The notes under the pieces: model-generated | Told to the model about the DNA's origin: nothing | The model's input: the letters and a program-made list of their open reading frames with translations, nothing else | Database searches by the model: none | Translations under genes and position numbers: made by a program | Source: a virus | IMG/VR virus record: IMGVR_UViG_3300044611_002466 | Span: 124,231-188,230 of that record | Length of the DNA: 64,000 nt | Strand: one strand, 5' to 3' | Shown: piece by piece, positions 503 to 63,828 of the stretch | How the letters are laid out: every line of letters starts with the position of its first letter | Numbering within the stretch: the stretch's first letter is position 1

Positions 503-511
503 CTTATGTCG
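503..511 (-). promoter_or_regulatory. putative -10 element CGACATAAG (sigma-28-like motif family)
   Basis: Intergenic, upstream of the ATG at 464; same motif recurs before other minus-strand genes. Confidence 0.55.
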
Positions 512-531
512 TGAATACGTCCGGTCTGTGC

Positions 532-569
532 GGGCTAAAACGACGTCGACTGCAGGAGGCAGTCGACGT
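532..569 (-). terminator. intrinsic terminator: 11-bp perfect stem followed by TTTTAGCCC
   Basis: ACGTCGACTGC (543-553) and GCAGTCGACGT (559-569), immediately after the stop of 573-1064. Confidence 0.75.
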
Positions 570-572
570 GGC

Positions 573-1064
573 TCATCGACTCTGCGATCTCGTCCACCGG
601 ACGATCGCCGCAAGGCCCTCTTCCATCTCCGCCGTGTAGAGGCGGTTGCGGCACGACTCCCACAGCGCCGGGACCACAGCCCCCACCTCACGCGCCGACC
701 AGGAGCAGACCGGGTCTCGGGAGTCTGCGCGACGCAAGTGGACCCAGAGCCCCTCGGTGGGGCGCTGCGTCAGCTCGAGGTAGAACACGCAGTCGTCGTC
801 AAGACCGAGCGCGATCTCACCCTGCATGTTTCCCAAGGGGGAGACATGCCCGGCGTCGACGGCGTCCTTCAGAACCTCCAGCAAGGACCGCAACTCGTGC
901 GGGCCGTTCAGGAAGGACTTCACGGCCTTCCCGCGACGTGGTCGGCCTTCCACTGTACGATCAGCTGGTCCACCTTCACCGAGTCCAACAGGACCCAGAG
1001 CGCCAGGAAGGCTCCGATGGCGGCCATGAGAATGAACCCCACAAGCTCGTCTTTCATTGAACAC
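573..1064 (-). CDS. hypothetical protein, 163 aa
   Basis: GGAGG RBS, own promoter motif and own terminator. Confidence 0.75.
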   Translation of the reverse strand: MFNERRACGVHSHGRHRSLPGALGPVGLGEGGPADRTVEGRPRRGKAVKSFLNGPHELRSLLEVLKDAVDAGHVSPLGNMQGEIALGLDDDCVFYLELTQRPTEGLWVHLRRADSRDPVCSWSAREVGAVVPALWESCRNRLYTAEMEEGLAAIVRWTRSQSR

Positions 1065-1076
1065 ACCTCCAGTCCT

Positions 1077-1104
1077 CTTATGACGGCGTCCGCCCGGTAG
1101 TTTG
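1077..1104 (-). promoter_or_regulatory. putative promoter CAAA-N15-CGTCATAAG
   Basis: Spacing matches the sigma-28 TAAA-N15-GCCGATAA layout; 13 nt upstream of the ATG at 1064. Confidence 0.6.
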
Positions 1105-1135
1105 GGCTAAAAGCCGGGCCCCGAAGGGCAGCCCG
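1104..1135 (-). terminator. hairpin with C(UUCG)G loop followed by TTTTAGCCC
   Basis: Minus strand reads CGGGCTGCCC-TTCG-GGGCCCG then GCTTTTAGCCC, downstream of the 1152 stop. Confidence 0.65.
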
Positions 1136-1151
1136 ACCCGATCCTTCTGGT

Positions 1152-1742
1152 CTACGAACGCGGTGCGTGAGCCCTCATGGCGCGCTCCATGGCGTCAGAT
1201 CGACGCACACAGAGAGGAGCCTTCACGACGGCGCTGTAGAGGAGCAGGGCGGTCCGCACGCGGTCCTCCGCATGCAAGACCCGCTGCAGCTGGGGAGCGT
1301 CAACGAGGGCACCGTCGAGGATGTCCCGGAAGGGCTGCGCCTCCGGAAGCGCGAGCAGCGCCTCCAGGGCCTGGAGCTCCCGGACGCGGTCCGGACTCTC
1401 CACATACCACGCGCGAAGGCCCGCCTTTGCCTCTTGGAGCTCCTCGTGGCGTCGGCGGACCAACGCGTGCGAGTCATCCAGCACCGGCTCGGTCCGAGCG
1501 GTCGCCACGAGGAACTGACACGCGCACGGTTCCTTGAGGTAGAGGTCCTTCCACGTGCTGAGGATCTGCTCGGCCTCGAGCTGCTCGACGTCGAGCAGAT
1601 CCATGACCTCCTTCTCGGGGGGCCCACTGTCGTCGCTGCTGAGAGTAGCGAACATCACCACCCAGGGCAGCCGCGGGTGCATCGCGGCGAGGAACTTGAA
1701 GCTGTCGGGATGCGTGGTGGTGTCGTCGGCCATTGTCGTCAT
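1152..1742 (-). CDS. hypothetical protein, paralog of 1877-2401
   Basis: Shares HPxLP, CxC and LRxWY blocks with the neighbouring ORF; own promoter motif. Confidence 0.8.
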   Translation of the reverse strand: MTTMADDTTTHPDSFKFLAAMHPRLPWVVMFATLSSDDSGPPEKEVMDLLDVEQLEAEQILSTWKDLYLKEPCACQFLVATARTEPVLDDSHALVRRRHEELQEAKAGLRAWYVESPDRVRELQALEALLALPEAQPFRDILDGALVDAPQLQRVLHAEDRVRTALLLYSAVVKAPLCVRRSDAMERAMRAHAPRS

Positions 1743-1785
1743 GGGAGCGCTCCGTGTAGTGTGCGGTGAGATGTACGCACACCAA

Positions 1786-1812
1786 CTTATGGCGCATTTA
1801 CCTCAGTTTTAG
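1786..1812 (-). promoter_or_regulatory. putative promoter CTAAAACT...GCGCCATAAG
   Basis: CTAAA 16 nt upstream of CATAAG; intergenic before the ATG at 1742. Confidence 0.55.
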
Positions 1813-1825
1813 AACGGAAACCCCC

Positions 1826-1854
1826 TAAAGAAAACAGGCCCTGAGGGCGCCTGT
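1826..1854 (-). terminator. hairpin plus T-tract (TTTTCTTTA)
   Basis: ACAGGC (1834-1839) and GCCTGT (1849-1854) stem with A-tract on the plus strand, after the 1877 stop. Confidence 0.6.
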
Positions 1855-1876
1855 CTTCCGACCGCACGTGCTGTGC

Positions 1877-2401
1877 TCACAGCAGCGTGCTACACCCCGC
1901 ACCGATGGTGCCGGATGCGCCGCGGTTCGCCGCGGTGCGCATCATCTGGGCGCTGGTGGAGAGGCTCTTCTGCGCGTCCCAGAAGCGCCAGAGCGCCTCC
2001 GGGACCACCTGCTCCGCCAGGGCCGCGGGGTTGTGCAGCTTCAGGATCTGCAGCGTGTCCGCGTGGAGGCGGTCGAGTGCGGTGCCGCCGAGGTACCAGT
2101 CCCTGAGCACGACCGCGGCCTCTTCGATGCCCTGGACATGCTTCTGGACGTAGGGGAGGAGGTCGGAGGGGGTGATCCCGGCCTCCGCCATCAGCGCGCA
2201 GTAGCACTGCTCCACGTGGAGCGCATCATAGGCAGCACTCAGCGCGGTCGCCGTGGCGGCTTCGTCGAGGCCGAGCTCCGGAAACGACACCGGTGTTGCC
2301 AGGGGGTCCCGCGCTGCCGCGAGGACGAACTCGCGGGGCAGTGCGGGGTGGATGCCGAAGAGGACCGAGAACGTGGCGGAGCGGGAATGGGGCATGTTCA
2401 C
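1877..2401 (-). CDS. hypothetical protein, paralog of 1152-1742
   Basis: FSVLFGIHPALP, EQCYC and LRDWYL align with the neighbouring ORF. Confidence 0.8.
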   Translation of the reverse strand: MNMPHSRSATFSVLFGIHPALPREFVLAAARDPLATPVSFPELGLDEAATATALSAAYDALHVEQCYCALMAEAGITPSDLLPYVQKHVQGIEEAAVVLRDWYLGGTALDRLHADTLQILKLHNPAALAEQVVPEALWRFWDAQKSLSTSAQMMRTAANRGASGTIGAGCSTLL

Positions 2402-2433
2402 CTCGAAGGAAGGGATGGTTCTGCTGACCCTTC

Positions 2434-2462
2434 CTTATGACCCCCTTCCCGCCCAACTTTAG
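2434..2462 (-). promoter_or_regulatory. putative promoter CTAAAGTTG-N11-GGTCATAAG
   Basis: Closest match in the window to the extended sigma-28 consensus TAAAGTTT-N11-GCCGATAA. Confidence 0.65.
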
Positions 2463-2465
2463 GCC

Positions 2466-2783
2466 TCAGACCTCCTCGTAGTTGTCCTTGTCATTCTTGG
2501 CGTACTTCACCACCAAGTCGCCCTTGGGGCGCAGGATGGTGTCGATGTCCGCCAGGAAGGGCAGGGGCAGCGTTCCGTTCTCGAGGAGCTTCGGGATGGG
2601 GGTGTCCCCGAGCTCGGAAGCGCGCCCGATCAGGAGGACGAACTTGATCTCCTTGGTGGTCTTGGGGTCCACGTAGACCCCCGCGCGTACACACTCCCAG
2701 GAGACCTTGTCGTTCTCGTCGACGAGGATGTCGCCGGACTTGGGGAAGAACTTCTTGCGGCTGAGAACACCCACTTTGGGCAT
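2466..2783 (-). CDS. hypothetical protein, 105 aa (MPKVGVLSRKKFFPK...)
   Basis: Internal ATG at 2783 with GGAG upstream preferred over the track start at 2912; phage-like codon usage. Confidence 0.8.
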   Translation of the reverse strand: MPKVGVLSRKKFFPKSGDILVDENDKVSWECVRAGVYVDPKTTKEIKFVLLIGRASELGDTPIPKLLENGTLPLPFLADIDTILRPKGDLVVKYAKNDKDNYEEV

Positions 2784-2844
2784 GGAAGACTCCAGAGAGT
2801 TGGGAAGAGGCGGCACCGTTACCGCGGTCTTATAACGCTTCTTG

Positions 2845-2881
2845 CGTGTGAGTACAAGCCCCTTGCGCGCGTACTCACACG
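2845..2881. promoter_or_regulatory. perfect 11-bp inverted repeat CGTGTGAGTAC-N15-GTACTCACACG in a divergent intergenic region
   Basis: Read directly at 2845-2855 and 2871-2881; an adjacent CGTTATAAG (minus, 2829-2837) is a variant of the -10 motif. Confidence 0.65.
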
Positions 2882-2897
2882 TGGATAGGGCCCGAAC

Positions 2898-3278
2898 ATG
2901 CCAATCTTGCACGTACCAGCCACGGGAGGAGGCCTTCAGGAGACCCGGGTCTCCGCAGGGCAGTCCCTGGCCTCCGCTCTTCGCGAGCTGGGGCTCCTCG
3001 GCTTGGCGGCCCAGCGCGGCATGGAACGCCAGACCCCGGCCGGCTGGGCACGAGTCGACACCTCGCGTACGCTTCGCTCTCAGGACGTCGTACGAATGCG
3101 GCCTCCGGTACAGCAGGAAGGCAAGGGCCAGGGCGTTGGACTCGCAAACACCCTGGTGAAGTTGGCCGAATCACTCACCCGCAGGAAGGACCCCAATGAC
3201 GGCACTACTCGAGCTGGTGTTCGAGGGCGGAGAAATCCTCGACCACAGCCTCGCATTCCAAAGGGAGAGCCTTCGTGA
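2898..3278 (+). CDS. small protein, possible ubiquitin-like/ThiS-MoaD beta-grasp fold
   Basis: Pattern V-x-x-GQSLA-x-AL-x-ELG...TL-x-x-x-DVV-x-M-x-P resembles ThiS/MoaD; no C-terminal GG. Confidence 0.45.
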   Translation: MPILHVPATGGGLQETRVSAGQSLASALRELGLLGLAAQRGMERQTPAGWARVDTSRTLRSQDVVRMRPPVQQEGKGQGVGLANTLVKLAESLTRRKDPNDGTTRAGVRGRRNPRPQPRIPKGEPS

Positions 3279-4089
3279 ACGGCTGGGGTCCGACTTTGTG
3301 AGCGTAGACCTGCGCTCCAAGACCGCTCTCGAGCGCAAGGCTCTGCTGCAGACGACGCTGGTCCGGGGCAAGACGTTCAAGAACGTCCTGATTCGGGGAC
3401 TCTCCGGCCTCCTGGAAGCGTCGCAGGTCTTCAGGACGTCGTCTCTCTTCCTGGACGCCTTGGGGAGGTCGGAGCTCCCGGCCTCGCGGGAGTTCTCCCA
3501 GTGGGCGTTCCGCACGAAGCGCGCCTTCGTCTACAGCGACCTGATGATGCAGGCGGTCCGCGCCGCCGGCATCGGCGCCATATCGAGGCACCAAGGCCCG
3601 TATCTCCCGCGGATCAACCTGGGCACGGAAGACGTCTCGAACTCCATCGGGGTCCTGAGCCTGGGGCGGGGATTCACCCCCGTGCTGGGCCAGCTCAAGC
3701 GTCGGTGGGAGCAGGAGGGGCTGAAGTTCGACTTGGTCACGACGATGGCCGTCGCCGGGGCCACGCGCGTGGGTTCGGTGTTCGAGGTCGCGGAGCGCTG
3801 CGGACTCCTCATCGCGCCCTACGAGGAAATGGACCGGGGTGGGCCGCACGAAGCTGCGCTGCTCGCGTTGAGCACCGGCCGCGTGCTCTGCACCTCCGCG
3901 ACCAGCGCGCTCTACAGCCTGCCCATGGGAGAGAAGCAGCTGCTCCAGGCGGCGTGCTATGAGAGGAACTCCTACGCGGATGCGGCGTTGGACTACGAGG
4001 GCATCGAGGTGCACTCCAAGAACTGGAAGGACCCCTACGCCGACAACGACGCGCTCTCCGTCCCGGACGAGATCCTCAGGAGACTTTGA
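3196..4089 (+). CDS. GT-B fold glycosyltransferase-like protein (GT4-like, divergent)
   Basis: C-terminal GLLIAPYEEMDRGGPHEAALLALSTGRVLCTSATSALYSL resembles the GT4 nucleotide-sugar-binding block. Confidence 0.6.
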   Translation: MTALLELVFEGGEILDHSLAFQRESLRERLGSDFVSVDLRSKTALERKALLQTTLVRGKTFKNVLIRGLSGLLEASQVFRTSSLFLDALGRSELPASREFSQWAFRTKRAFVYSDLMMQAVRAAGIGAISRHQGPYLPRINLGTEDVSNSIGVLSLGRGFTPVLGQLKRRWEQEGLKFDLVTTMAVAGATRVGSVFEVAERCGLLIAPYEEMDRGGPHEAALLALSTGRVLCTSATSALYSLPMGEKQLLQAACYERNSYADAALDYEGIEVHSKNWKDPYADNDALSVPDEILRRL

Positions 4090-4319
4090 TGCTCGCGACC
4101 GAAGCGTACAGCTCCATCCCCGTGAACAGGGGCGTGCGCCGCCGCCTCATGCGCGCTGCCCGGCTCGGTACACGCCCCGTGAAGACGGTACCGAACATCG
4201 GTGACGCGGCCCGAGCTGTCGACGCCGTGGCGGCCGTCTGGACGGGCTGGAGTAGCAGCACCGACCCGTTCCCGGCCGCGGTGAAGCAGGCGTGGTCTGT
4301 TCGCGAGGAGAGACCGTAG
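4086..4319 (+). CDS. hypothetical protein, 77 aa
   Basis: Start overlaps the upstream stop; its own stop overlaps the next start. Confidence 0.65.
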   Translation: MMLATEAYSSIPVNRGVRRRLMRAARLGTRPVKTVPNIGDAARAVDAVAAVWTGWSSSTDPFPAAVKQAWSVREERP

Positions 4320-4498
4320 TGCCCGCGCCGCGCCTCATCCCCCTGAACCAAGCCACGTGCCCGCATTGCCGGGGGAAGGAAACCAAGCGCGTCGGGTACG
4401 CTCCGGAGGCCGAAGGTTCGGTCTGGAGGTGCGAGGGACCAGAGTGCGGCAAGAGCTTTGTCGTCCGCGCGTTGGCCCTCGTGAAGAAACCCGGTTGA
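4319..4498 (+). CDS. small zinc-ribbon protein
   Basis: GTG overlapping the upstream TAG; CPHC...CEGPEC motif. Confidence 0.7.
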   Translation: MPAPRLIPLNQATCPHCRGKETKRVGYAPEAEGSVWRCEGPECGKSFVVRALALVKKPG

Positions 4499-4524
4499 CA
4501 GGACCCGCGGGATGTGAGTACAAG
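4495..4524 (+). promoter_or_regulatory. TTGACA-N18-TACAAG, containing GATGTGAGTACAA; possibly leaderless
   Basis: Perfect TTGACA at 4495-4500; ATG at 4530 only 5 nt after the hexamer and no SD sequence. Confidence 0.55.
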
Positions 4525-4529
4525 AGCAC

Positions 4530-5000
4530 ATGACCTGGCCGCTCGACCAATCCCCGATCCCAGAGCCCGATGAAGACGGAACCGCATCCGGCGCCGTCGA
4601 TGACACCCCTCGATTCGCGAAAACCGCCGGGCCCTCGGAGGGACGGCGAACGAATGCAGACGACGTCCTCGATGCGATCTCCGGGCGTGCCCCCGCGAAG
4701 AAGTGGGATCGCATCCACTGCCCGCTCTGCGGCGCAGATACGAAGCTACGGGCTGCATCCTTGGGGGTCCAGACCAACACGCGTCGGTGCCAGAACCCCA
4801 AGTGCAAGAACGAGTTCCCGGTCGCCTCTGTACGAAACAACCTCGACGTCCCGCCCCCGCCGCCGAACCCACTGCTGCTCGGAGGGCCCTTCAAGGGAGG
4901 ACCCGACCGCGGTGTTGGACGTCCCCCGATCGACATCAATGAGCCCATCCAACGTCGCATAGCCGAAGTGGTACGCCGGAGCGCGAATGAAGACGACTGA
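4530..5000 (+). CDS. zinc-ribbon protein (Ogr/Delta-like Cys spacing) with Pro-rich tail
   Basis: CPLCG...RRCQNPKCKNEF. Confidence 0.7.
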   Translation: MTWPLDQSPIPEPDEDGTASGAVDDTPRFAKTAGPSEGRRTNADDVLDAISGRAPAKKWDRIHCPLCGADTKLRAASLGVQTNTRRCQNPKCKNEFPVASVRNNLDVPPPPPNPLLLGGPFKGGPDRGVGRPPIDINEPIQRRIAEVVRRSANEDD

Positions 5001-5895
5001 CCCGGTTCCCCTGCAGAGGGAGGACAACGTAGCGAACGCCGGGGCAGAGGCCCGGCGCAAGATCCTCGAGCGGGCGAAGGCCAACGCGGAGAAGGGTGGA
5101 TCTCGACCTGGTCCGATGGAGGGAGTCCCGCGCTTCGACGAGGTCGACCGCGAGTCCAAGACCATGAAGCCCGCCCCCGGGCACGCCACCCCGCCGCCGG
5201 GGCTGTCCAGGACCACGCTCGACGCGCTCAACGCGGTCGCCGCAGCCAACGTGGGGAGGGCCGACGTCCCGCCCGAGGTCGCTCCGGAGGCAGAGCCCGC
5301 CACGGCAGAGCCCCTGACGCGCGAGACGATCGCGATCCTCCTCGACATCTCGAAGGAGCAGGCCAGCGAAGTCCTGGCCATCGTGCGTCCGGGAGACAGC
5401 ATCTCGACGCGGAAGCGCATCGAAGCACGCCTGTCCCCCATCGACATCGGCGAGTTCCTCATGAGCTCGCACGCGACGCAGGCGGTCCCCCTGATCCCTC
5501 CCACCGAGTCCCTGCGGAAGGGTCTCACGATCACCTACCAGTCCGTGACTGAGGCCGTGGAGGCCGCGGTGGACCGTCGCCTCTCCACGGAGGCGGCCAG
5601 CATCCGGAAGGAGCGCGACGGCACCGGCTTCATCGACGTCGAGATGTCCCAGCGCGAGTACGTTCGTCGGCAGAACGAGTACGCCCTCGCGGTGCACGTC
5701 CAGGCCTATGGAGACCAGCGGTGGCCCGTCCTCCTGACGGCGGCCGGCGCAGTCGACGAGGGCAACCTCGACCTCCGCATGGCCAAGGTCCGACAGATCC
5801 CCGCGGCCATCTTCGCGATGGCCATCCAGAACCTCGCGTGGTTCCTGGACCGTGTACAGCGCACCCTGGAGGTAGCAGTCCTGGGAAATGGATGA
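4987..5895 (+). CDS. putative tail/baseplate assembly chaperone (G-like)
   Basis: Low-complexity N-terminus plus globular C-terminal domain; ends in the slippery heptamer G GGA AAT. Confidence 0.5.
   Translation: MKTTDPVPLQREDNVANAGAEARRKILERAKANAEKGGSRPGPMEGVPRFDEVDRESKTMKPAPGHATPPPGLSRTTLDALNAVAAANVGRADVPPEVAPEAEPATAEPLTRETIAILLDISKEQASEVLAIVRPGDSISTRKRIEARLSPIDIGEFLMSSHATQAVPLIPPTESLRKGLTITYQSVTEAVEAAVDRRLSTEAASIRKERDGTGFIDVEMSQREYVRRQNEYALAVHVQAYGDQRWPVLLTAAGAVDEGNLDLRMAKVRQIPAAIFAMAIQNLAWFLDRVQRTLEVAVLGNG
5883..5889 (+). other. candidate -1 programmed frameshift site GGGAAAT
   Basis: X XXY YYZ phase relative to the upstream ORF; the -1 frame is open (GKWMRTP...) into 5892-6332. Confidence 0.55.
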
Positions 5896-6332
5896 GGACT
5901 CCGTTGGGTTGGGCGAGGGCCCAGCTGATCTATGATCACCTGGACAAGCCCCCGTCTTACGGGTCCCTCCTCGAGTTGATGTGCCTGGTCGTCCAACGCG
6001 AACGAGCACAGCTTTCGGTTTTGGGTGCGCGTGCCCAGGCGCAAGCGGCGCTGGGAGGCGATGCGGCAGAGGCCGCCTTCAAGGACTTCGTCAACGCGAA
6101 CAACCGCGTGGAGACTGAGGACGTGAAGAAGCGCATGCAGGCGCAGCTGGAGAAGCTCAAGGAGATCAAGGAGATTCGGGTCACCCCGCTGGCGTCTACC
6201 GAGAAGCGGGTCAAACTGCCCACCATCACCGCCGGACAGCTCAGGGCCTCCGGGGTCCTCGTAGATCAGATGAGACCAGAGGGACTACCACAGCGTCCGG
6301 CACGGGCGCGAGCACAGAGGAGTAGCAGATGA
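5892..6332 (+). CDS. putative tail chaperone second part (T-like)
   Basis: ATGA overlap with the upstream stop; lies in the -1 frame of the upstream gene. Confidence 0.65.
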   Translation: MRTPLGWARAQLIYDHLDKPPSYGSLLELMCLVVQRERAQLSVLGARAQAQAALGGDAAEAAFKDFVNANNRVETEDVKKRMQAQLEKLKEIKEIRVTPLASTEKRVKLPTITAGQLRASGVLVDQMRPEGLPQRPARARAQRSSR

Positions 6333-6652
6333 GACTCGGCCTTCTGGTACTGGGTGTAGGGGAGTTTCGATCCTTTCAGGACGACGTACAGGACTCCGTC
6401 TTCTTCGTGCGCCTCATGCAAGAGGGCGGCGACACCTTCGAGCTGTCGATCTCCGAGGACCAGCTCTCCCAGTTGGTCTCCCGCTTCGCGGAGCAGGCTG
6501 CTGCGGCACCCCCGGATGATCCACCGCCTCCCCGCAGCCAGCCTGCGACGCGGCCTCCTCCTGCACCCCTTGCACCTTTCTGGACTCCTCCGGAGGACGA
6601 CGGGGATGACGGCCCCGTGGTTGTCTTCCAGGCCGCGGACGGCGGTCTATGA
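6329..6652 (+). CDS. hypothetical protein with Pro-rich tail
   Basis: ATGA coupling on both sides. Confidence 0.75.
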   Translation: MRLGLLVLGVGEFRSFQDDVQDSVFFVRLMQEGGDTFELSISEDQLSQLVSRFAEQAAAAPPDDPPPPRSQPATRPPPAPLAPFWTPPEDDGDDGPVVVFQAADGGL

Positions 6653-6978
6653 GTCCGAGTGAGTCCCTCGCGTTGATTCGGATCGAGCACAAGCTCGACT
6701 TGATCCTCGAGTCCCTTTCGACGCGGGACCCTGTCCTTGCCGCGCTGCTCAACGAAGGCACCGGACTCAGCGCCTACTCCGGGGATGTTTGCCCCACGTG
6801 TCTTGGAGACGTCCGAATCATCTCCGACCTGACCACAGAGACCTACACGCGAACCTGCGATTGTAAGCCGAACATGCCGATCGTTGTCGGCATCAAGAAG
6901 CTGAACGAAGGCGTCCCCGCCAAGAAGACGCCCACCACGACCCCCGATCAGGAGGAAGACCCCCATGCCGAGAGCTGA
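6649..6978 (+). CDS. Zn-binding hypothetical protein
   Basis: CPTC...CDC; ATGA coupling. Confidence 0.75.
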   Translation: MSPSESLALIRIEHKLDLILESLSTRDPVLAALLNEGTGLSAYSGDVCPTCLGDVRIISDLTTETYTRTCDCKPNMPIVVGIKKLNEGVPAKKTPTTTPDQEEDPHAES

Positions 6979-7306
6979 AGTCCGTGCGCGCGCCGCCATC
7001 GGACTGTTTCAGTGTGTCATCTACGACTCCAACTCGACGAAGCGCGTCATCGCAGTCGCCGCCTGCGGGGACGACGTGAAGTGGGCCCCGAACTTCTTCG
7101 GGCTGTTCGACCGCAACATCGCGGCCTCGGCTCCCAAGTGGCTGAGGGACCAGATCATGAGTCTCCCGGCGGACATCGCCGACCTGGACTTCCGTGGACA
7201 GCCCCTCGACGGCAGCCAGCCCGTCGCCGGCGACGGACGTGCGGTCGTCCACATGAAGGAAGGCGAGCACCTCGGTGACGAGTCCGCCATCCCGCAGGGG
7301 GGTTGA
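6965..7306 (+). CDS. hypothetical protein, 113 aa
   Basis: GGAGGA RBS; fills the operon gap. Confidence 0.75.
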   Translation: MPRAEVRARAAIGLFQCVIYDSNSTKRVIAVAACGDDVKWAPNFFGLFDRNIAASAPKWLRDQIMSLPADIADLDFRGQPLDGSQPVAGDGRAVVHMKEGEHLGDESAIPQGG

Positions 7307-7309
7307 GTC

Positions 7310-7681
7310 ATGTACGACGTGAGCCAGATCCGCCCCCAGCCTGGCTGGGCCCTCTGCCGTACGCTGAAGCCGACCACCGCGACGAACAGCGGCATCCTCA
7401 AGTCCGCGGGGGACATGGAGGACGGGAAGACCACCGAGGCAGTCGCCGAGGTGATCAGCGTCACGCCTGCCCGGCTTCCTGATGGAGGGCAGATCGATCC
7501 GAACTTCGGCGCCGGCGACCTCATCGTCATCCGCGACTTCCTGAAGAGCGCCAACCCGCTCGGAGATCGTGTGGGGGCGGATCGCAGTGACCGCGTCTTC
7601 CTGCTGCACTATACGGATGCGCTCGCAGTCGTGAGCGGCACGGGCGTGCTCGGTTACGACGGCGAGTACCACATCGGGTAG
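7310..7681 (+). CDS. groES: co-chaperonin GroES/Cpn10 homologue
   Basis: IRPQPGWALCR...SGIL...AEVISV...PDG...GDLIVI...VFLLHYTDALAVV aligns with GroES along its whole length. Confidence 0.85.
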   Translation: MYDVSQIRPQPGWALCRTLKPTTATNSGILKSAGDMEDGKTTEAVAEVISVTPARLPDGGQIDPNFGAGDLIVIRDFLKSANPLGDRVGADRSDRVFLLHYTDALAVVSGTGVLGYDGEYHIG

Positions 7682-7692
7682 GGAGAGGGGCC

Positions 7693-7932
7693 ATGGCCGA
7701 CAACAAGGACGAGCGGCTCCAGCTTCGGATGGAGCCGGATCTGAAGGAGTGGTTCAAGGTCGATGCCGCCTCTGACGGGGGCATGAGTCACGTTGTCCGT
7801 CAATGCGTCGTAACTCGCTACGAGACGAAGACCGGTAAGCAGTGGAAGGGAGGGTCCGATGGACAGACAGAGGATGGTCCTGGTAACGGAGTCGAGGCAG
7901 ATTGCGCGCGCCACGGTGCCGGGACTGCTTGA
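7693..7932 (+). CDS. ribbon-helix-helix (Arc/CopG-like) DNA-binding protein
   Basis: ERLQLRMEPDLKEWF...GGMSHVVRQCV. Confidence 0.65.
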   Translation: MADNKDERLQLRMEPDLKEWFKVDAASDGGMSHVVRQCVVTRYETKTGKQWKGGSDGQTEDGPGNGVEADCARHGAGTA

Positions 7933-9875: not shown

Positions 9876-9908
9876 GGCTTGCCGCGTACACGGAGTAGGC
9901 TCTTTCCC

Positions 9909-10583: not shown

Positions 10584-10587
10584 TCCC

Positions 10588-11958: not shown

Positions 11959-12104
11959 CAGGCAGGGCTAAGAAGAACCGCCAACTCGCTTTCGTCGACC
12001 ATCGACTACGCCCGAGCTGGGTGCCTACTCCCGACGCTGGCCTGCAGGTCTGAACACCGGCAGTTTCAACACGTACCCCTTATCACCCTTTTCCTGGGGT
12101 TTGT

Positions 12105-12365
12105 ATGCCAACTCTCGGCGACTCTATAAGCCAAGTGCGCGACATGGAGGACCGAGCTGCTGTGCTGCGAACGGCGGTCTCACACCTCCGTACGAAGTAC
12201 GTCTCTCGTGACTCGACCCCCGCGTTGGCGCAGATGCGCACGCAGGCCGGCTTCCCGGTCAACGAGTCCGTGATCGTGAACACCGCGCTCGAGCTCGAGC
12301 GGGAGGCCAAGGAGCTCGAGGACGCGGTCAAGGCCGCCAAGGCCACGGAGCTCGGAGATGTCTGA
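12105..12365 (+). CDS. hypothetical helical protein, 86 aa
   Basis: Good codon bias; overlaps the next gene. Confidence 0.75.
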   Translation: MPTLGDSISQVRDMEDRAAVLRTAVSHLRTKYVSRDSTPALAQMRTQAGFPVNESVIVNTALELEREAKELEDAVKAAKATELGDV

Positions 12366-12922: not shown

Positions 12923-12926
12923 TTGC

Positions 12927-13805: not shown

Positions 13806-13809
13806 CTTG

Positions 13810-14971: not shown

Positions 14972-14972
14972 G

Positions 14973-15874: not shown

Positions 15875-15876
15875 CT

Positions 15877-18866: not shown

Positions 18867-18982
18867 GTGGTGGGAAGACACAACAGGACAATGGATCGGC
18901 ACGTGTATTCCCCACTAAGAAGGAGGCCTCGCGAACTTCGTAGGTCCGCCAAAGAGGCCGATGATACCGCGGTCTCAGAGTC

Positions 18983-19010
18983 CTTATGCGGCATTTTCGA
19001 GCACAGTTAA
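18983..19010 (-). promoter_or_regulatory. putative promoter TTAA-N15-CCGCATAAG
   Basis: Intergenic; same spacing as 1077 and 2434. Confidence 0.55.
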
Positions 19011-19373: not shown

Positions 19374-19389
19374 GCGCACCTCCAACCTA

Positions 19390-19398
19390 CTTATGACC
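19390..19398 (-). promoter_or_regulatory. putative -10 element GGTCATAAG
   Basis: 17 nt upstream of the ATG at 19373. Confidence 0.55.
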
Positions 19399-19423
19399 CG
19401 GAAGGGCGCCCTCTTGCGCGGGC

Positions 19424-28262: not shown

Positions 28263-29138
28263 ATGGGGCTCCTGCTGCGCGCCTTCGAGAAGCGGGCAAC
28301 GTCGGTGGAGACACCTGCCGTACCGGCGCTCGTTGTACCGCAGCCGCCTCCGCCGGCCGAGCAGTGGCATCCCGAGTGGGCGCCGCAGGCCGGATGGCAC
28401 GGCGAGGGGAACCCCGGGGGCTGGAGGCGTCCGGCTCTTGAGGCGCGGCGGAAGGAGCTCTTCCTGTGGGATCAGTGGAAGAAGGGGGGCCAGACCCCCG
28501 AGCTCTCCGCCCCTCTCATGAAGTCCCTGCGGCCGGTCATCTACTCGCAAGGGGTGCGTGCCTGGATCAACCGAGTGCCGGTGCAGCCCGCCGTCCTCGA
28601 GTCCAAGGCGGTGCAGCTGGCGCTGGGCGCGCTGGAGTCGTACAACCCGGCAGCGGCACAGCTCAACACCCACCTCACGATCACCCTGAAGGGGATGCAC
28701 CGATTCGCCACGTCACGGCAGAACATGACGCGGCTGACGGAGGCCCGCCGTCGCCTGGTCGGTCCTTACCAGCGCGCCCTCGCGCGCCTGAAGGACAAGC
28801 TGGAGCGAGAGCCGAGCGTCCTCGAGCTCGCGGACGAGATGAAGGAGACTCCGGACAACGTGGAGAAGCTCCTGCTGGAGATGAAGGACGACCTCATGTC
28901 CTCCGGGACGATGAACGACCCCTTCCTCGACGAGACGCCGGAGTCCCGCCTCAAGCTGCTGCTCATCCGATACAGCTTGACCCCCGAAGAGGGGACCGTG
29001 TTCGACTACCTCATGGGTCAGGGCGGCAAGCCCCGCGTCGAGAGCCCTGGCGAAATCGCAAAGCGTGAGGGGTGGTCCAGCTCCAAGGTCTCCCAGCTGA
29101 AGAACGCGATCATGCGGAAGTGGAAGGGCGTCGCATGA
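28263..29138 (+). CDS. RNA polymerase sigma factor, sigma-70 family group 3 (FliA/sigma-28-like), with N-terminal extension
   Basis: Region 2 ALGALESYNP...LNTHL; region 3 LKDKLEREPSVLELADEM; region 4 LTPEEGTVF...EIAKREGWSSSKVSQL (compare FliA SRVSQL). Confidence 0.8.
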   Translation: MGLLLRAFEKRATSVETPAVPALVVPQPPPPAEQWHPEWAPQAGWHGEGNPGGWRRPALEARRKELFLWDQWKKGGQTPELSAPLMKSLRPVIYSQGVRAWINRVPVQPAVLESKAVQLALGALESYNPAAAQLNTHLTITLKGMHRFATSRQNMTRLTEARRRLVGPYQRALARLKDKLEREPSVLELADEMKETPDNVEKLLLEMKDDLMSSGTMNDPFLDETPESRLKLLLIRYSLTPEEGTVFDYLMGQGGKPRVESPGEIAKREGWSSSKVSQLKNAIMRKWKGVA

Positions 29139-55505: not shown

Positions 55506-56010
55506 CTCGCAGGTAAGTGGTCGGGATCCCGTACCTAAGCGGGTCCATCTCCTCCAGTATCATGTGCACCTCCGGCGCCCCAGTCGTGCTGACCATCTTG
55601 GCACCGTGACCCTCCCAGAAGAGGGAATCGTCGATACCGATGGCCTCGCTGAGACCATCTTCCAGGAGCTTACGTCTATTCGTGACGTCAACGCGCTTAT
55701 ACGCACTTTTCGTCGTTCCTTTAAGCCATCCCGCTGCGAGCAGCTCCTCCGCGGGGAAGACGAAGAAGAAGGACAATGCGTAGATCATCCAGGGCTTGTG
55801 CTCCTTTACGAACCTCTGCACCTCTACGAAGTGCTTGTCGTTGATGTGCCGCATGACCAGCTTCTTGTAGTCGACCGCCTCCTTGGTGTACCGGATGACG
55901 GCATGTCGCTTACCTCCGGCGTGAACGTATCCGATGTCTCGGATGGCGTTGTCCGACGGAGGCAGGACGTCGTAGGAGATGATCAAGCAGCGGGGAGACG
56001 CCGTCATCAT
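55486..56010 (-). CDS. rusA: RusA-family Holliday junction resolvase
   Basis: LPPSDN...; DVTNRRKLLEDGLSEAIGIDDS matches DxxNxxKxxxD...DD. Confidence 0.8.
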   Translation of the reverse strand: MMTASPRCLIISYDVLPPSDNAIRDIGYVHAGGKRHAVIRYTKEAVDYKKLVMRHINDKHFVEVQRFVKEHKPWMIYALSFFFVFPAEELLAAGWLKGTTKSAYKRVDVTNRRKLLEDGLSEAIGIDDSLFWEGHGAKMVSTTGAPEVHMILEEMDPLRYGIPTTYLRDARVQP

Positions 56011-60924: not shown

Positions 60925-61277
60925 GGCTCTTCCGGGGGTGCGTAGGGGGTGAATCCGGGCCGGGACGTGCGCGGGTCCGGACCACGGCCGAGGAGGAAGT
61001 TGAACATCTGCAAGTACCAGGCCGCCTTCCGAGCGTCCTCATCGCCGGGTCCCTTGAGCCCCTCACGGTCCTGGTACTTGAATGCGCAGGCCATGCAGTG
61101 GACGGCGAATGCCGCATCCGCGACACTACACCCGGATGCGGTGGCCTCCGCGAACCAAGCCCCCGCGCGGTCGCGGATCCGATCGATCGTCTCCCGCCCC
61201 GCCGCGCTGTAGCGCAGCGGGGCGACGACGAAGCCCGTGTTGTCGTCGCCCCCGGGGGACTCTACCTGCTCTCCCAT
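60921..61277 (-). CDS. DUF3310-like protein
   Basis: RY...ETID...AFKY..R.GLKG..DED.RKAAWYL. Confidence 0.75.
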   Translation of the reverse strand: MGEQVESPGGDDNTGFVVAPLRYSAAGRETIDRIRDRAGAWFAEATASGCSVADAAFAVHCMACAFKYQDREGLKGPGDEDARKAAWYLQMFNFLLGRGPDPRTSRPGFTPYAPPEEP

Positions 61278-63802
61278 TAGCCCTTCCCCTCGCCCCAGTT
61301 GGGGGCGTCGTTGATGTCGATGAGGATGGGAACCCGCATGGGGAACGGGTTTTCCATCAGGAGCTTGACCCGCTTCTTCACGGCGGTGACGACCTCTGGG
61401 ATGTCTGGGACCTCCCAGATCAACTCGTCGTGCACCTGCATAAGCATGCGCGCTCCAAGCCTACGAAGCTCGGCGTCGCCCTCACACTTGGTCATCGCTG
61501 CGTTGCAGATGTCCGCGGCGGAGCCCTGGATGCGACTGTTCGGTGCCTGCCGGTCCGCCTGGGACGACTTCATTCGGTCGTTGGAGATGATCTCCGGCAG
61601 GCGGCGCGGGTGGCCGATGACCGTGTAGACCGCGAGGTCCTGACGGCACCGCTCGCGCGTCTGCTCGATGAACCGCCCGATGCCCGGGAAGATCGTCCAG
61701 AGGTACCGATCGATCAGGTCCTGCGCCTCGGGGCAGGAGTCGCGCAGCTGCCCGTCGCGTCCCTTGCGCTTGACGATGGGGAGCCCCAGCTGCATCCCCA
61801 GCTTCAGGGCACCGATGCCGTACACGATGCCGAAGCCGGTGCTCTTCAGCGCCTTTCGAGCGTCGATGAGCGCCTCTTCCTCGTCGGTAGGGGCTCGGCC
61901 CTTGCCCTCTTCGTGGGCCGATGCGACGTCCTTCGCCGCCTTGGCCATGGCGTAGGTGATGCCGGGCGGCAGTCCCGCCGCGCCCAGGGCCGACGCGAGC
62001 TCCACGGTCTTGCAGTGCAAGTCCTGCTTCGCGCGGATGGCGTCGATCATCGCCTCGTCTTCGCTGAAGTGGGCGAGGATGCACATCTCCAGCTGCTTGA
62101 AGTCGGCCACCACCAGGCGCATGGGGAAGTCAGGCGGGAGGTCCGGCACCGGCACATTCCTCAGATGAGGGAGGCAGATGTCCGGGTTGCAGTCTCCCCA
62201 CTTCCCGGCGATGAACAGCCGTCGGATGAGCTTCCCCCACTTCCCCTTGGCCGGGATGTTCTGCAGGTTCGGATCGTAGGAGGCGAGGCGCCAAGTACGC
62301 GCGCCGCCGGCGTTGAGGGAGGTGTGGATCCGCTGAAGACGGTCGACCCACTGCGGAAGCCCGACCATGTAGTCGCCGTGCAGCTTCCTGAACTTCCGGT
62401 GCTCGAGGATGAGCGTGGAGAGCTTGTGGCCCTTGCCAGCGAAGTTCTCCAAGACCTCGGCGTCTGTACTGGGCTCTTTGATGCCGGTGGCCCCTCCAGA
62501 GGTCATCTTCTTCGGAGTGTCGCCGAACGGGTCGAACCACCGCCCGCCCGCGTCCTGCTCGAACAGCTTCGCGCGGAGCTGGTCCGCGCTCTGCGGATTG
62601 AAGTGCAGGTCCCCCGTCTCCGTGACCACCTCTTTCTCGATACGGTCGAGCTCCCGCCGCATGTCGACCGCGTACGCGTGAGTCTGCTCCACGTCGATCG
62701 CGAATCCACGCCGTTCGAGGTTCCAGAGGATTCGCTGGAAGGGGACGCGGATGTCCTCGTAGTGCCAGAGCAGCATCTCGGGCTTCGCGCCGCGCTCCAC
62801 GGCCTCCGTGATCATCTCCATGCCGGGCTCCGCCAGCATCTCACGCATCCGAGGGACCAACGAGTAGGACGCCCAGCTGTCGAGACTGGCGTAGTCGCAC
62901 ACGCCCTCCCGAAGAGCCTCCACGGGATTCTCAGGGATACCCGTCCGGGCCAGGAGGTTGTCGTAGACCACCTGCGTCACCTCGCGCAGACAGACCTCCT
63001 TCTCGGTCAGAGCGATGAAGTCCTTCCGCTCGCGCGGAGGAACAGCCTGACCCCCGAGCAGCTGCATGAACTCGGACACGTGCCGGTGCACACCGCTGTC
63101 CTGCTCCACCACCCCGAACTGCTCCGCGATGGCGATCACCTGCCGGGCAGAGAGGGTGCACTGCAGCGCGCGCAGAGAGAGATGAAGGCGCCGCACCCCC
63201 TCGAGGACCGCAGGGTCTCCGGAGACGCGCTTGAGCCGGAGGAGCACGTCACGACCGGCCCGCTGAGCCGCTTCGACGGCGCCCATGTGGTCGTGCATCT
63301 CAAGGATGTCGTGGATCTCGCACATCGTGCGGACCTCCTCGTCCTTGACCCCCGCAGCACCGAACACCTCCTTGAACGGAGACATGCGCAGGCCCAAGTA
63401 CGTCTGAGCGCAGTCCTTCAGGCCGTGACGTCCCTGACGGTTCTCGTCGATACAGAAGTCCATGTCGACGGTGTCGACGATGTGCCCGCCGAGCAGGATG
63501 CCGTGGTTGGCCAGCAGATGACTGTCGTACTTCGCGTTCGACAGGCGCTTCTCCGTGTACGGGTCCTCCAGCAGCCCCTTAAAGATGGGCAGCAGGCGGA
63601 CCGGAGCGCAGATCCTGGCGTGTTGGATGGCGAGGGAGAAGAAGCGGACTCGGTCCCGAATGATGTCGAGTCCGGTGGTCTCGGTGTCGACGCCGAGGCC
63701 CTGCTGCGGGGCCGCATCCTCAAAGATGACCCTCCATTGATGGGCCTGTTCCTCCGTGCGAACGTAGACTGGGATGGGGGTACGAACAAAGTCGAAACGC
63801 AT
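61277..63802 (-). CDS. polA: family A DNA polymerase (3'-5' exonuclease plus polymerase, no 5'-3' exonuclease)
   Basis: ExoI DTETTG, ExoII NAKYD, ExoIII DYASLD; NLQNIP; motif A ADFKQLE; motif B RKALKSTGFGIVYG; motif C QVHDEL. Confidence 0.95.
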   Translation of the reverse strand: MRFDFVRTPIPVYVRTEEQAHQWRVIFEDAAPQQGLGVDTETTGLDIIRDRVRFFSLAIQHARICAPVRLLPIFKGLLEDPYTEKRLSNAKYDSHLLANHGILLGGHIVDTVDMDFCIDENRQGRHGLKDCAQTYLGLRMSPFKEVFGAAGVKDEEVRTMCEIHDILEMHDHMGAVEAAQRAGRDVLLRLKRVSGDPAVLEGVRRLHLSLRALQCTLSARQVIAIAEQFGVVEQDSGVHRHVSEFMQLLGGQAVPPRERKDFIALTEKEVCLREVTQVVYDNLLARTGIPENPVEALREGVCDYASLDSWASYSLVPRMREMLAEPGMEMITEAVERGAKPEMLLWHYEDIRVPFQRILWNLERRGFAIDVEQTHAYAVDMRRELDRIEKEVVTETGDLHFNPQSADQLRAKLFEQDAGGRWFDPFGDTPKKMTSGGATGIKEPSTDAEVLENFAGKGHKLSTLILEHRKFRKLHGDYMVGLPQWVDRLQRIHTSLNAGGARTWRLASYDPNLQNIPAKGKWGKLIRRLFIAGKWGDCNPDICLPHLRNVPVPDLPPDFPMRLVVADFKQLEMCILAHFSEDEAMIDAIRAKQDLHCKTVELASALGAAGLPPGITYAMAKAAKDVASAHEEGKGRAPTDEEEALIDARKALKSTGFGIVYGIGALKLGMQLGLPIVKRKGRDGQLRDSCPEAQDLIDRYLWTIFPGIGRFIEQTRERCRQDLAVYTVIGHPRRLPEIISNDRMKSSQADRQAPNSRIQGSAADICNAAMTKCEGDAELRRLGARMLMQVHDELIWEVPDIPEVVTAVKKRVKLLMENPFPMRVPILIDINDAPNWGEGKG

Positions 63803-63819
63803 GCGAACACCTCCGCCGC

Positions 63820-63828
63820 CTTATGACG
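63820..63828 (-). promoter_or_regulatory. putative -10 element CGTCATAAG upstream of polA
   Basis: 18 nt upstream of the ATG at 63802, before the GGAGG RBS. Confidence 0.55.

What the first reader, a model, noticed from the sequence alone, without database searches (positions are those of the whole stretch)
503..63828. Sigma-28-like promoter motif (C/G)G(T/C)CATAAG upstream of minus-strand accessory genes and polA
Seen: CATAAG on the minus strand at 503, 1077, 1786, 2434, 18983, 19390 and 63820, each intergenic and upstream of a start codon (13-45 nt for six of them; about 80-115 nt for 18983), plus variants at 2829 (TATAAG) and 12079 (GATAAG). Three sites have an AA-rich tetramer exactly 15 nt before the 8-mer ending in ATAA (CAAA, TAAA, TTAA). 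The 2434 site reads TAAAGTTG-N11-GGTCATAA. I noticed only two in-gene CATAAG copies (11098, 61439), both Leu-Met codons. Established: the sigma-28 consensus is TAAAGTTT-N11-GCCGATAA. Inference: this is a variant sigma-28 promoter class read by the phage's own FliA-like sigma (28263-29138).
Basis: partly seen in the sequence, partly recalled or inferred. Interest (0 to 1): 0.78.

Follow-up and report, generated by a model that had tools for sequence, protein, structure and literature searches.

The report
Phage-specific ATAAG promoter class
The repeated CATAAG word is the core of a real two-part promoter that this 188-kb lake-water phage and its relatives, including Salmonella phage Arash, place in front of their non-structural genes; it is probably read by the phage's own sigma factor and RNA polymerase, but it is not a true flagellar (sigma-28) promoter.

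Summary
Observation confirmed and extended. In the whole 188,230-bp phage genome, CATAAG occurs 29 times on the minus strand and once on the plus strand. At least 25 copies lie wholly in non-coding gaps (1.25 expected). It is the most enriched upstream 6-mer.

Anchoring on it shows a bipartite promoter: (g)cAA at -32/-31, a free 16-nt spacer, G at -14, YATAAG at -12 to -7, a purine at -5 and T(-1)R(+1).

The same grammar recurs in a close relative (32 copies, one strand), in three distant relatives (for example GCAA-N16-GGnATAAGA-N4-TG) and in cultured Salmonella phage Arash (GGTATAAG, 30 versus 1). Arash virions contain beta, beta' and sigma.

The sigma-28 label is only partly right. The spacing, the AA at -32/-31 and the ATAA core match. 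But -12 is not G, -7 is an invariant G, and the sigma scores 18.7 bits against FliA/WhiG (cut-off 189.6). Its family profile matches SigA/RpoS structures better than FliA.

No transcription start has been mapped. This scan has already noted the same promoter class on other phage genomes. I found no paper describing it.

The parts
496..530 (-). Promoter; CATAAG core at 503-508. The span runs from the -35-like element to the predicted start.
   Evidence: PWM score 20.6; A at -31, G at -14, T(-1)G(+1); 38 nt before the start codon of the ORF ending at 464.
532..569 (-). Hairpin plus TTTTAGCCC, the terminator-like end of the upstream unit
   Evidence: perfect GC-rich stem followed by TTTTAGCCC. 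T[TC]TAGC[CT] occurs 14 times on the minus strand and once on the plus strand genome-wide.
1070..1104 (-). Promoter; CATAAG core at 1077-1082
   Evidence: PWM score 22.8; AAA at -33 to -31, G at -14, T(-1)G(+1). The Shine-Dalgarno sequence begins at the predicted start; the start codon is 19 nt after the motif.
1104..1134 (-). Hairpin plus CTTTTAGCCC terminator-like element
1779..1813 (-). Promoter; CATAAG core at 1786-1791
   Evidence: PWM score 23.5; CTAAAA at the -35-like position; start codon 43 nt downstream.
1825..1853 (-). Hairpin plus TTTTCTTTAG terminator-like element
2427..2461 (-). Promoter; CATAAG core at 2434-2439. This site has the most sigma-28-like -35 element (TAAAG).
   Evidence: reads TAAAGTTG-N11-GGTCATAA; PWM score 20.5.
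2822..2856 (-). Weak variant promoter; TATAAG core at 2829-2834
   Evidence: intergenic, 45 nt before a start codon; PWM score only 8.2; GCAAG is mis-spaced.
12072..12106 (-). Variant promoter; GATAAG core at 12079-12084. It points away from any clear gene.
   Evidence: PWM score 14.3; AA at -32/-31 and G at -14. Only a doubtful 65-aa ORF (11805-12002) lies downstream.
18976..19010 (-). Promoter; CATAAG core at 18983-18988. It heads the minus-strand block that contains the DNA ligase gene (16946-18313).
   Evidence: PWM score 26.8; TTTAAC at the -35-like position; T(-1)G(+1).
19383..19417 (-). Promoter; CATAAG core at 19390-19395
   Evidence: PWM score 29.9; reads GCAAG-N15-GGTCATAAG. It is conserved at the orthologous place in relative G001. 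The start codon is 16 nt after the motif.
55689..55723 (-). Candidate internal promoter; TATAAG core at 55696-55701, inside ORF 55486-56010
   Evidence: PWM score 17.4 with a full -35-like element and G at -14. The next gene start (55505) is about 190 nt downstream.
63813..63847 (-). Promoter of the polA/replication block; CATAAG core at 63820-63825
   Evidence: 17 nt before the polA start; PWM score 15.6 (the -35-like AA is mis-spaced). L002 and L003 also carry CATAAG upstream of polA, at shifted positions.
63838..63875 (-). Long GC hairpin upstream of the polA promoter
28263..29138 (+). Phage sigma factor with sigma2-sigma3-sigma4 domains and a Trp-rich N-terminal extension; the proposed reader of the motif
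   Evidence: Pfam Sigma70_r3 hit; 978 cluster representatives in its family; family profile against PDB SigA 4e-20; AlphaFold2 pLDDT 85.8; best Foldseek hit sigmaS at 7e-8.

Best explanation
CATAAG is the -12 to -7 element of a bipartite promoter class that belongs to this phage lineage.

The full signal is (g)cAA at -32/-31, a 16-nt spacer of free sequence, G at -14, Y-A-T-A-A-G at -12 to -7, a purine at -5, and a T(-1)/R(+1) start 7 nt after the G.

It heads every block of minus-strand, non-structural genes: small ORFan accessory genes, DNA ligase and polA. It is absent from the plus-strand virion genes.

Units are often bracketed upstream by a hairpin followed by TTTAGC(C), which looks like the matching terminator. 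In about a dozen units the predicted transcript begins at the Shine-Dalgarno sequence itself, giving a leader of about 10-12 nt.

The inferred reader is the phage's own holoenzyme: the single fused beta-beta' RNA polymerase plus the sigma at 28263-29138. By analogy with phage Arash this holoenzyme is probably carried in the virion. The invariant G at -7, where sigma70 needs T, would keep these promoters private to the phage enzyme.

Shown: the motif's anatomy, placement, orientation and conservation across lineages. Inferred: that it is a promoter, where the start site lies, which sigma reads it, and when it fires.
For: - Placement: 29 minus against 1 plus copies; 25-28 intergenic against 1.25 expected.
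- Unbiased k-mer enrichment in upstream regions ranks CATAAG first: 18 observed against 0.59 expected.
- Position-specific conservation around the core in G000: A at -31 in 22/28 sites, G at -14 in 26/28, a purine at -5 in 26/28, G at +1 in 20/28.
- The same pattern appears independently in relative G001 (24/27, 24/27, 23/27, 21/27), whose spacers are unrelated.
- Distant relatives: G005 has 6 copies on one strand and 0 on the other; G006 has 0 and 6. G004 has GCAA-N16-GGnATAAGA-N4-TG at 15 intergenic sites; 13 of them show the full pattern, and the plus-strand copies lie at or within plus-strand gene blocks.
- Arash has GGTATAAG 30 times on the minus strand and once on the plus strand, with A at -5 in 16/18 sites, T at -1 in 16/18 and a purine at +1 in 18/18.
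- The genome has one RNAP only.
- The sigma family is present in G000, G001, G003, G004 and Arash.
- Arash virions contain beta, beta' and sigma Gp10 (PMC10585845).
- The sigma has a region 3, which fits reading of a G at -14.
- The consensus sigma70 scan finds no excess of sites.
Against: - No 5' end, RNA-seq or biochemical datum exists for any of these phages; no RNA run holds this DNA.
- Arash's TGGTATAAG is one base away from an extended -10 sigma70 promoter, so host RNAP use is not excluded.
- The promoter class of the plus-strand genes, which include the RNAP and sigma genes, was not found. The transcription programme is therefore incomplete.
- Virion packaging is shown only for Arash, whose sigma is 27% identical to this one.
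- The polA site and the 2829 site lack a well-spaced -35-like element.
Confidence: 0.65

Rival explanations
1. One reading: the sigma is a FliA/sigma-28 family member and the motif is a diverged sigma-28 promoter (TAAAGTTT-N11-GCCGATAA), read by sigma-28-type contacts.
For: - The register is identical: AA at -32/-31 and ATAA at -11 to -8 (against PMC12784957 and PMC2859248).
- The site at 2434 reads TAAAG at exactly the sigma-28 -35 position.
- Region 4.2 reads SKVSQL, against ESRVSQL in E. coli FliA. This keeps the Ser and Gln that contact -36 to -34 in P. aeruginosa sigma-28.
- FliA_WhiG is the NCBIfam model hit by the most family members, 55 of 60.
Against: - FliA_WhiG scores 18.7 bits against a cut-off of 189.6. 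The cyano-RpoD and SigB/F/G models hit almost as many members, with equal or better E-values.
- The family profile matches FliA 6PMI at 6.5e-9 but SigA at 4e-20. Foldseek ranks sigmaS, sigmaB and sigmaA at least as high.
- The Arg at the sigma70-W434 position, conserved in group 3 and contacting the -12 G, is Thr or variable here.
- Position -12 is C, T or any base, never selectively G. Position -7 is an invariant G, but it is unconserved in sigma-28 promoters.
- T at -34 is weak (10/28).
- The Ser/Gln pair is not kept in the G004 sigma, although G004 has the sharpest -35 element.
Confidence: 0.12
2. These are early promoters for the host's housekeeping sigma70 holoenzyme, of the extended -10 type. 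The phage sigma and RNAP serve other genes.
For: - G at -14, A at -11, T at -10 and a start 7 nt downstream are the sigma70-family grammar.
- Arash has T at -15 in most sites, giving TGGTATAAG.
- In many phages the small accessory genes are host-transcribed early genes.
Against: - G at -7 is invariant in every lineage (29/29 CATAA are followed by G; 30 Arash sites). Yet T at -7 is conserved and essential for sigma70 (PMC12784957).
- There is no TTGACA-like -35 element, and the consensus sigma70 scan gives 1 hit against 1.7 expected.
- The -35-like AA is at the same fixed distance in Arash-distant, high-GC relatives whose hosts must differ.
Confidence: 0.12
3. The motif is read by the second, sigma-like paralogue of this phage (genome 118260-119321, minus strand, outside the window) and not by the virion-block sigma.
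For: That 353-aa protein matches the sigma family profile (E = 3e-10; hhalign probability 96%). It has a region 2 and a C-terminal helix-turn-helix.
Against: - Its own gene sits 17 nt behind a CATAAG promoter, so it cannot start the class.
- It has no detectable homologue in G001, which has 32 motif copies, nor in Arash. The same profile finds only one sigma in G001.
Confidence: 0.04
4. The motif is not a promoter. It could instead be an RNA-level signal (a processing site or translation enhancer near the Shine-Dalgarno sequence) or the binding site of a phage regulator.
For: - In about 12 sites the motif sits a fixed 6-8 nt before the Shine-Dalgarno sequence.
- No transcript data exist.
Against: - The distance to the start codon varies from 16 to more than 100 nt.
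- A second conserved element lies 16 nt upstream, across a free spacer.
- The motif follows terminator-like hairpins.
- In Arash it also precedes tRNA genes.
- T(-1)R(+1) is conserved at the expected start.
Confidence: 0.05

Closest known systems
Sigma-28 (FliA) promoters, TAAAGTTT-N11-GCCGATAA (PMC2859248; PMC12784957)
   Same: - Bipartite, with the same register: A-rich -35 element with A at -32/-31, and ATAA at -11 to -8.
- The upstream part of the -10 octamer (-15 to -13) is G/C-rich.
- The reading sigma lacks region 1.1 and has regions 2, 3 and 4.
   Different: - Position -12 is C/T/N here, not the critical G.
- G at -7 is invariant here; that position is unconserved in sigma-28 promoters.
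- T at -34 is weak here.
- The sigma fails the FliA/WhiG model and lacks the group-3 Arg at the W434 position.
Extended -10 promoters of sigma70-family holoenzymes (TGnTATAAT)
   Same: G at -14, Y at -12, A at -11, T at -10, A at -9 and A at -8. The start lies 7 nt after the hexamer, at a pyrimidine-purine step.
   Different: - G replaces the near-invariant T at -7.
- T at -15 is seen only in Arash.
- There is a fixed AA element at -32/-31 in place of TTGACA.
Salmonella phage Arash (OQ632216.1; PMC10585845)
   Same: - Same genome plan: virion genes, including the sigma gene, on one strand and small non-structural genes on the other.
- Homologous sigma (27% identity).
- GGTATAAG occurs 30 times on the non-structural strand, with the same downstream A(-5) and T(-1)R(+1).
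   Different: - Position -12 is T and -13 is G in Arash.
- Arash has separate beta and beta' genes; here they are one fused frame.
- Arash's sigma region 4.2 is divergent and its -35-like element is looser.
- The Arash paper does not mention promoters.
Phage T4 late promoters (TATAAATA, read by gp55 with gp33 and the gp45 clamp). This comparison rests on my own knowledge and was not tested here.
   Same: An A/T-rich TATAA-type -10 word. Arash's TATAAGTA differs from it at one base. Both are phage-encoded sigma-like specificities.
   Different: - T4 late promoters have no -35 element, and gp55 has only a region-2-like domain. Here the sigma has regions 3 and 4 and there is a spaced upstream element.
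- T4 uses host core RNAP.
Virion RNA polymerases of N4 and phiKZ/AR9 with their early promoters (PMC4496689; PMC5312081)
   Same: The proposed logic: an enzyme delivered with the DNA reads a private promoter class on early genes.
   Different: - Those enzymes are a single-subunit RNAP (N4) or a sigma-less split beta/beta' RNAP (phiKZ, AR9).
- Their promoters are hairpins or short AT-rich words without a -35/-10 layout.
- A 2021 survey of jumbo phages found no phage that carries both its own RNAP and a sigma (PMC7824862).

Membership tests
Sigma-28 (FliA/WhiG) promoter class | -10 octamer GCCGATAA with G at -12 (the CGA core) | tested here: not met
   Position -12 is C in all 28 anchored sites, T in Arash and any base in G004. 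CGATAA occurs only once per strand in intergenic DNA.
Sigma-28 (FliA/WhiG) promoter class | -35 element TAAA(G) placed 15 nt upstream of the octamer | tested here: inconclusive
   The spacing is met exactly, and A at -31 (22/28; 24/27) and A at -32 are conserved. But T at -34 is present in only 10/28 sites and -33 is mostly C. Mutating that T abolishes a real sigma-28 promoter (PMC2859248).
Sigma-28 (FliA/WhiG) promoter class | Position -7 is not conserved and not flipped out | tested here: not met
   G at -7 is invariant: 29/29 CATAA are followed by G, and all Arash and G004 sites have it. Compare PMC12784957.
FliA/WhiG sigma factors (TIGR02479) | Score above the curated cut-off of the family model | tested here: not met
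   18.7 bits against a cut-off of 189.6. No family member reaches any curated cut-off.
FliA/WhiG sigma factors (TIGR02479) | Group-3 Arg at the sigma70-W434 position and Tyr at the Y430 position | tested here: not met
   The alignment with E. coli FliA and RpoD shows TH(L/V)xxx in place of TYAVQR (FliA) and TYATWW (RpoD). Residue roles are from PMC12784957.
Sigma70-family sigma factor (any group) | Domains sigma2, sigma3 and sigma4 in order | tested here: met
   Pfam Sigma70_r3 hit. The family profile covers regions 2-4 of SigA at 4e-20. The AlphaFold2 model (pLDDT 85.8) matches sigmaS, sigmaB, sigmaD and sigmaA over about 250 columns.
Sigma70-family promoter (bipartite, open complex nucleated at -11) | A at -11 and T at -10; an upstream element at a fixed distance; start about 7 nt after the -10 element | tested here: met
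   ATAA is invariant. AA lies at a fixed 16-nt spacing. T(-1)R(+1) is conserved in three lineages. The start site itself is predicted, not measured.
Sigma70 (housekeeping) promoter | T at -7 and a TTGACA-like -35 element | tested here: not met
   G at -7 is invariant. The consensus scan gives 1 hit against 1.7 expected in window 1-20000.
Functional promoter (any class) | Mapped transcript 5' ends, or in vitro initiation | not testable with these tools
   No RNA holder was listed for this DNA. The Arash paper contains no transcription data.

The most novel reading that the evidence does not exclude
A widespread clade of large phages runs a self-contained transcription system. The sigma family has 978 cluster representatives. 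A virion-delivered, phage-encoded bacterial-type RNA polymerase with its own three-domain sigma reads a private promoter code: CAA-N16-G-n-N-ATAAG, with G replacing the universal T at -7. It also uses a matching hairpin+TTTAGC terminator. Together these would insulate all non-structural genes from host sigma70. This combination of own RNAP plus own sigma was reported absent from jumbo phages in the 2021 survey.
Probability: 0.5. Interest if true: 0.78.

Novelty: new variant of a known kind. Interest (0 to 1): 0.62.

Why it matters
If the motif is read by the phage's own holoenzyme, it gives the promoter code of a large, almost unstudied phage clade that has a cultured member, Arash on Salmonella. 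That would make several things directly testable:
- how a sigma pocket is re-tuned from T to G at -7;
- how a phage keeps its promoters invisible to host RNAP;
- how a virion-borne multisubunit RNAP with a sigma starts infection.

It would also allow automatic annotation of transcription units in hundreds of metagenomic phage genomes, and it offers an orthogonal sigma/promoter pair for engineering.

Tried and rejected
- Megablast of window 1-20000 against the phage collection gave no match.
- RNA evidence: no RNA holder was listed; only lake-water DNA runs hold this stretch.
- A Gibbs sampler on 28 upstream regions of plus-strand genes found only weak RBS-like words.
- The PWM scan found no plus-strand site above noise.
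- TAnnnT and GnTAnnnT words are not clearly strand- or gap-enriched.
- A survey for leaderless starts found no general pattern. The promoter class of the virion genes therefore stays unknown.
- The consensus sigma70/terminator scan showed no excess. It misses the short-T-tract terminators seen here.
- No tRNA genes lie downstream of orphan sites, and there are no Rfam families in the motif-rich 20 kb before the window.
- The hairpin after the 18983 promoter folds no better than shuffles (z = -0.5).
- Mean folding energy upstream of the sites is not different from random genomic 68-mers (-25.2 against -23.1 kcal/mol). The terminator reading rests on the hairpin+TTTAGC pattern in about 13 sites, not on energy.
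- The second sigma-like protein has no homologue in the phage collection or in the 5.8-billion-protein set apart from itself.
- Literature searches for the motif strings, and for Arash transcription, found nothing relevant.
- I rejected the idea that TTTTAGCCC is the -35 element. Its distance to CATAAG varies from about 15 to 35 nt and it tracks the hairpin. It overlaps the AA element only in some sites.

Full report
**What the window is.** The window is the last 64 kb of a single 188,230-bp viral contig (65.4% GC). It was assembled from lake-water metagenomes. It has no close relative in the public phage collection. A crude self-trained gene caller gives 236 genes and 93.3% coding sequence, arranged in alternating strand blocks. 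The plus-strand blocks hold virion genes, the single RNA polymerase (one 2,986-aa frame with both beta and beta' domains) and the sigma gene at window 28263-29138. The minus-strand blocks hold small ORFan genes, a DNA ligase and polA.

**Checking the observation.**
- The window count alone is unremarkable: 9 copies against 4.6 expected.
- The genome-wide distribution is not. There are 29 CATAAG on the minus strand and 1 on the plus strand (P = 6e-8).
- 25 copies lie wholly inside the 6.7% of the genome that is non-coding, against 1.25 expected. No dinucleotide shuffle out of 500 gave more than 5.
- By my gene calls, 28 of the 29 minus-strand copies are intergenic.
- An unbiased k-mer count on all upstream gaps ranks CATAAG first, at 18 observed against 0.59 expected.

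**Anatomy.** I aligned the 28 intergenic sites on the motif and numbered them as a promoter with the G of CATAAG at -7.
- A at -31 in 22/28 sites and A at -32 in 12/28
- a spacer with no conserved sequence
- A or T at -19 in 25/28
- C or G at -15 in 25/28
- G at -14 in 26/28
- T at -13 in 16/28
- the invariant C-A-T-A-A-G at -12 to -7
- a purine at -5 in 26/28
- T at -1 in 13/28 and G at +1 in 20/28

In about a dozen units the Shine-Dalgarno sequence GGAGGTGA begins at the predicted +1, so the leader would be only about 10-12 nt. In others the start codon is 38-43 nt or more than 100 nt away. That spread argues against a translation signal.

About 13 sites are preceded by a GC-rich hairpin followed by TTTAGC(C/T). 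This word is itself strand-specific: T[TC]TAGC[CT] occurs 14 times on the minus strand and once on the plus strand. Its distance to CATAAG varies. I therefore read it as the terminator of the preceding unit and not as the -35 element.

A PWM scan recovers the known sites and adds three more: TATAAG at window 55696 (inside an ORF), GATAAG at 12079 and, weakly, TATAAG at 2829. It finds nothing on the plus strand.

**Comparative evidence.**
- The closest relative found (G001; PolA 84% identical; 182,777 bp) has 32 GNCATAAG on one strand and none on the other. 27 of these sites, with unrelated spacers, show the same position-specific pattern: A at -31 in 24/27, G at -14 in 24/27, T at -1 in 20/27 and G at +1 in 21/27.
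- Fragments G002 and G003 have 3 copies each on one strand only. G005 and G006, whose PolA is only 31-34% identical, have 6 each on one strand only.
- G004 (177 kb; PolA 30% identical; sigma family member at E = 1e-69) has ATAAGA, GGATAAG and GCATAAG as its top upstream words. It has 15 intergenic ATAAG sites; 13 of them read GCAA-N16-GG-n-ATAAG-A-N4-TG, with small deviations. They lie on both strands, and the plus-strand copies sit at or within plus-strand gene blocks.
- The cultured Salmonella phage Arash has the same genome plan. It has GGTATAAG 30 times on the non-structural strand and once on the other strand, just upstream of gp9 and the sigma gene gp10. Downstream it has A at -5 in 16/18 sites, T at -1 in 16/18, a purine at +1 in 18/18, and a looser A-rich -35-like region.
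- The ATAAG core, the G at -14, the AA at -32/-31 (sharp in the high-GC relatives, looser in Arash) and the start-site dinucleotide are thus conserved across lineages whose hosts must differ.

**Who reads it.** The genome encodes one RNAP and two sigma-like proteins.
- The sigma at 28263-29138 belongs to a large family: 978 cluster representatives at E <= 1e-3. It is present in G000, G001, G003, G004 and Arash.
- The second protein (genome 118260-119321, 353 aa) is a distant paralogue. It sits directly behind a CATAAG promoter. It has no counterpart in G001 or Arash, so it cannot be the conserved reader.
- In Arash, mass spectrometry of virions detected beta, beta' and sigma Gp10 (PMC10585845).
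- The invariant G at -7 also argues against host sigma70. For sigma70, T at -7 is conserved and is flipped into a pocket that is essential for opening the promoter (PMC12784957). A consensus sigma70 scan finds no excess either.
- I therefore favour the phage holoenzyme, probably delivered with the DNA. This is inference; no transcript or biochemical datum exists.

The P. aeruginosa sigma-28 open-complex structure numbers the fliC promoter as (-36)TCTAAAG(-30) and (-15)GCCGATAA(-8). In that numbering the phage motif has A at -32/-31 and ATAA at -11 to -8, which is exactly the same register. The site at 2434 even reads TAAAG at the right place. Region 4.2 of the phage sigma (SKVSQL) resembles FliA (SRVSQL) and keeps the Ser and Gln that contact -36 to -34.

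However, several points count against the label:
- Position -12 is never selectively G.
- Position -7 is an invariant G, whereas it is free in sigma-28 promoters.
- T at -34 is weak.
- The sigma scores 18.7 bits against FliA_WhiG, whose cut-off is 189.6.
- Family members hit the cyano-RpoD and SigB/F/G models about as often, and as well, as FliA_WhiG.
- The family profile prefers SigA, SigB and RpoS structures (1e-20 to 1e-17) over FliA (6.5e-9).
- The AlphaFold2 model (pLDDT 85.8) is a generic sigma2-sigma3-sigma4 protein whose best matches are sigmaS, sigmaB, sigmaD and sigmaA.
- The group-3 Arg at the W434 position is missing.
- The Ser/Gln pair is not kept in the G004 sigma, although G004 has the sharpest -35 word.

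The G at -14 with Y-A-T-A-A is equally like an extended -10 sigma70 promoter. [quoted passage not shown]

**Novelty and context.** A 2021 survey of jumbo phages found phages that have their own RNAP but no sigma, and phages that have a sigma but no RNAP, never both (PMC7824862). The Arash paper does not discuss promoters. Full-text searches for the motif found nothing relevant.

Within this scan the same promoter class has already been noted on other phage genomes: GG(N)ATAAG, GCAA-N19-ATAAG, and TATAAG with a hairpin+TTAG end. It has also been noted on other windows of this genome. I saw the notes on other genomes after doing my own analysis, and they agree with it.

What remains open is the promoter class of the plus-strand virion genes, the timing of expression, and every experimental step.

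Noticed in passing
Genome 118260-119321, minus strand (outside the window; L020:14030-15091:-): A second, highly diverged sigma-like protein of 353 aa. It has a region 2, a C-terminal-type helix-turn-helix and an unknown tail of about 170 aa. Its gene lies 17 nt behind a CATAAG promoter. It is absent from the closest relative G001 and from Arash, and no homologue was found anywhere. It could be a lineage-specific late or auxiliary sigma.
   Followed up: partly
Window 532-569, 1104-1134, 1825-1853, 19006-19038 (minus strand), and many more sites upstream in the genome: The terminator-like units have an unusually specific tail: a GC hairpin followed by (T)TTTAGC(C/T). That word occurs 14 times on the minus strand and once on the plus strand. 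G004 uses TTTCTAGCC in the same role. This may be a terminator code specific to the phage RNAP.
   Followed up: partly
Window 18915-18976 (minus strand): The 18983 promoter is followed, within about 60 nt, by a hairpin plus TCCTTCTTAG of the terminator type. The next 590 nt have weak coding signal (GC3 0.69). This could be a short non-coding RNA or an attenuator ahead of the ligase block. The fold is not better than shuffles.
   Followed up: partly
Window 19397-19441 (plus strand): The 1110-aa virion gene most likely starts at 19439. It is preceded by TGCTATGCT and then 6 nt, with no Shine-Dalgarno sequence. That is the layout of an extended -10, sigma70-type promoter giving a leaderless mRNA. 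It is conserved in G001. Similar GCTACAAT and GCTACACT words precede other plus-strand genes, but there is no statistical enrichment.
   Followed up: partly
Window 12072-12135: Back-to-back GATAAG (minus strand, 12079) and TATAAG (plus strand, 12125) lie in one 242-bp gap between plus-strand genes. The minus-strand one would fire antisense into the 3' end of the 10588-11919 gene, or drive a doubtful 65-aa ORF.
   Followed up: no
Genome 119850-120690 (L020:15620-16460): An 840-bp gap with no called gene, relatively AT-rich, contains a CATAAG site (120292) with no ORF for 571 nt and several TAnnnT words on both strands. No Rfam family and no tRNA were found.
   Followed up: partly
Window 28263-28440 (sigma N-terminus): The first 60 residues or so of the sigma form a low-confidence, Pro- and Trp-rich extension (W-H-P-x-W...G-W...G-W). 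It is conserved among close relatives but absent from Arash Gp10 and most distant family members.
   Followed up: no
Arash OQ632216.1, 120989-121342 (plus strand): There is a weak second match to the sigma family profile (E = 1e-4, 380-aa frame). Arash may also carry a second sigma-like protein, unrelated to the G000 paralogue.
   Followed up: no
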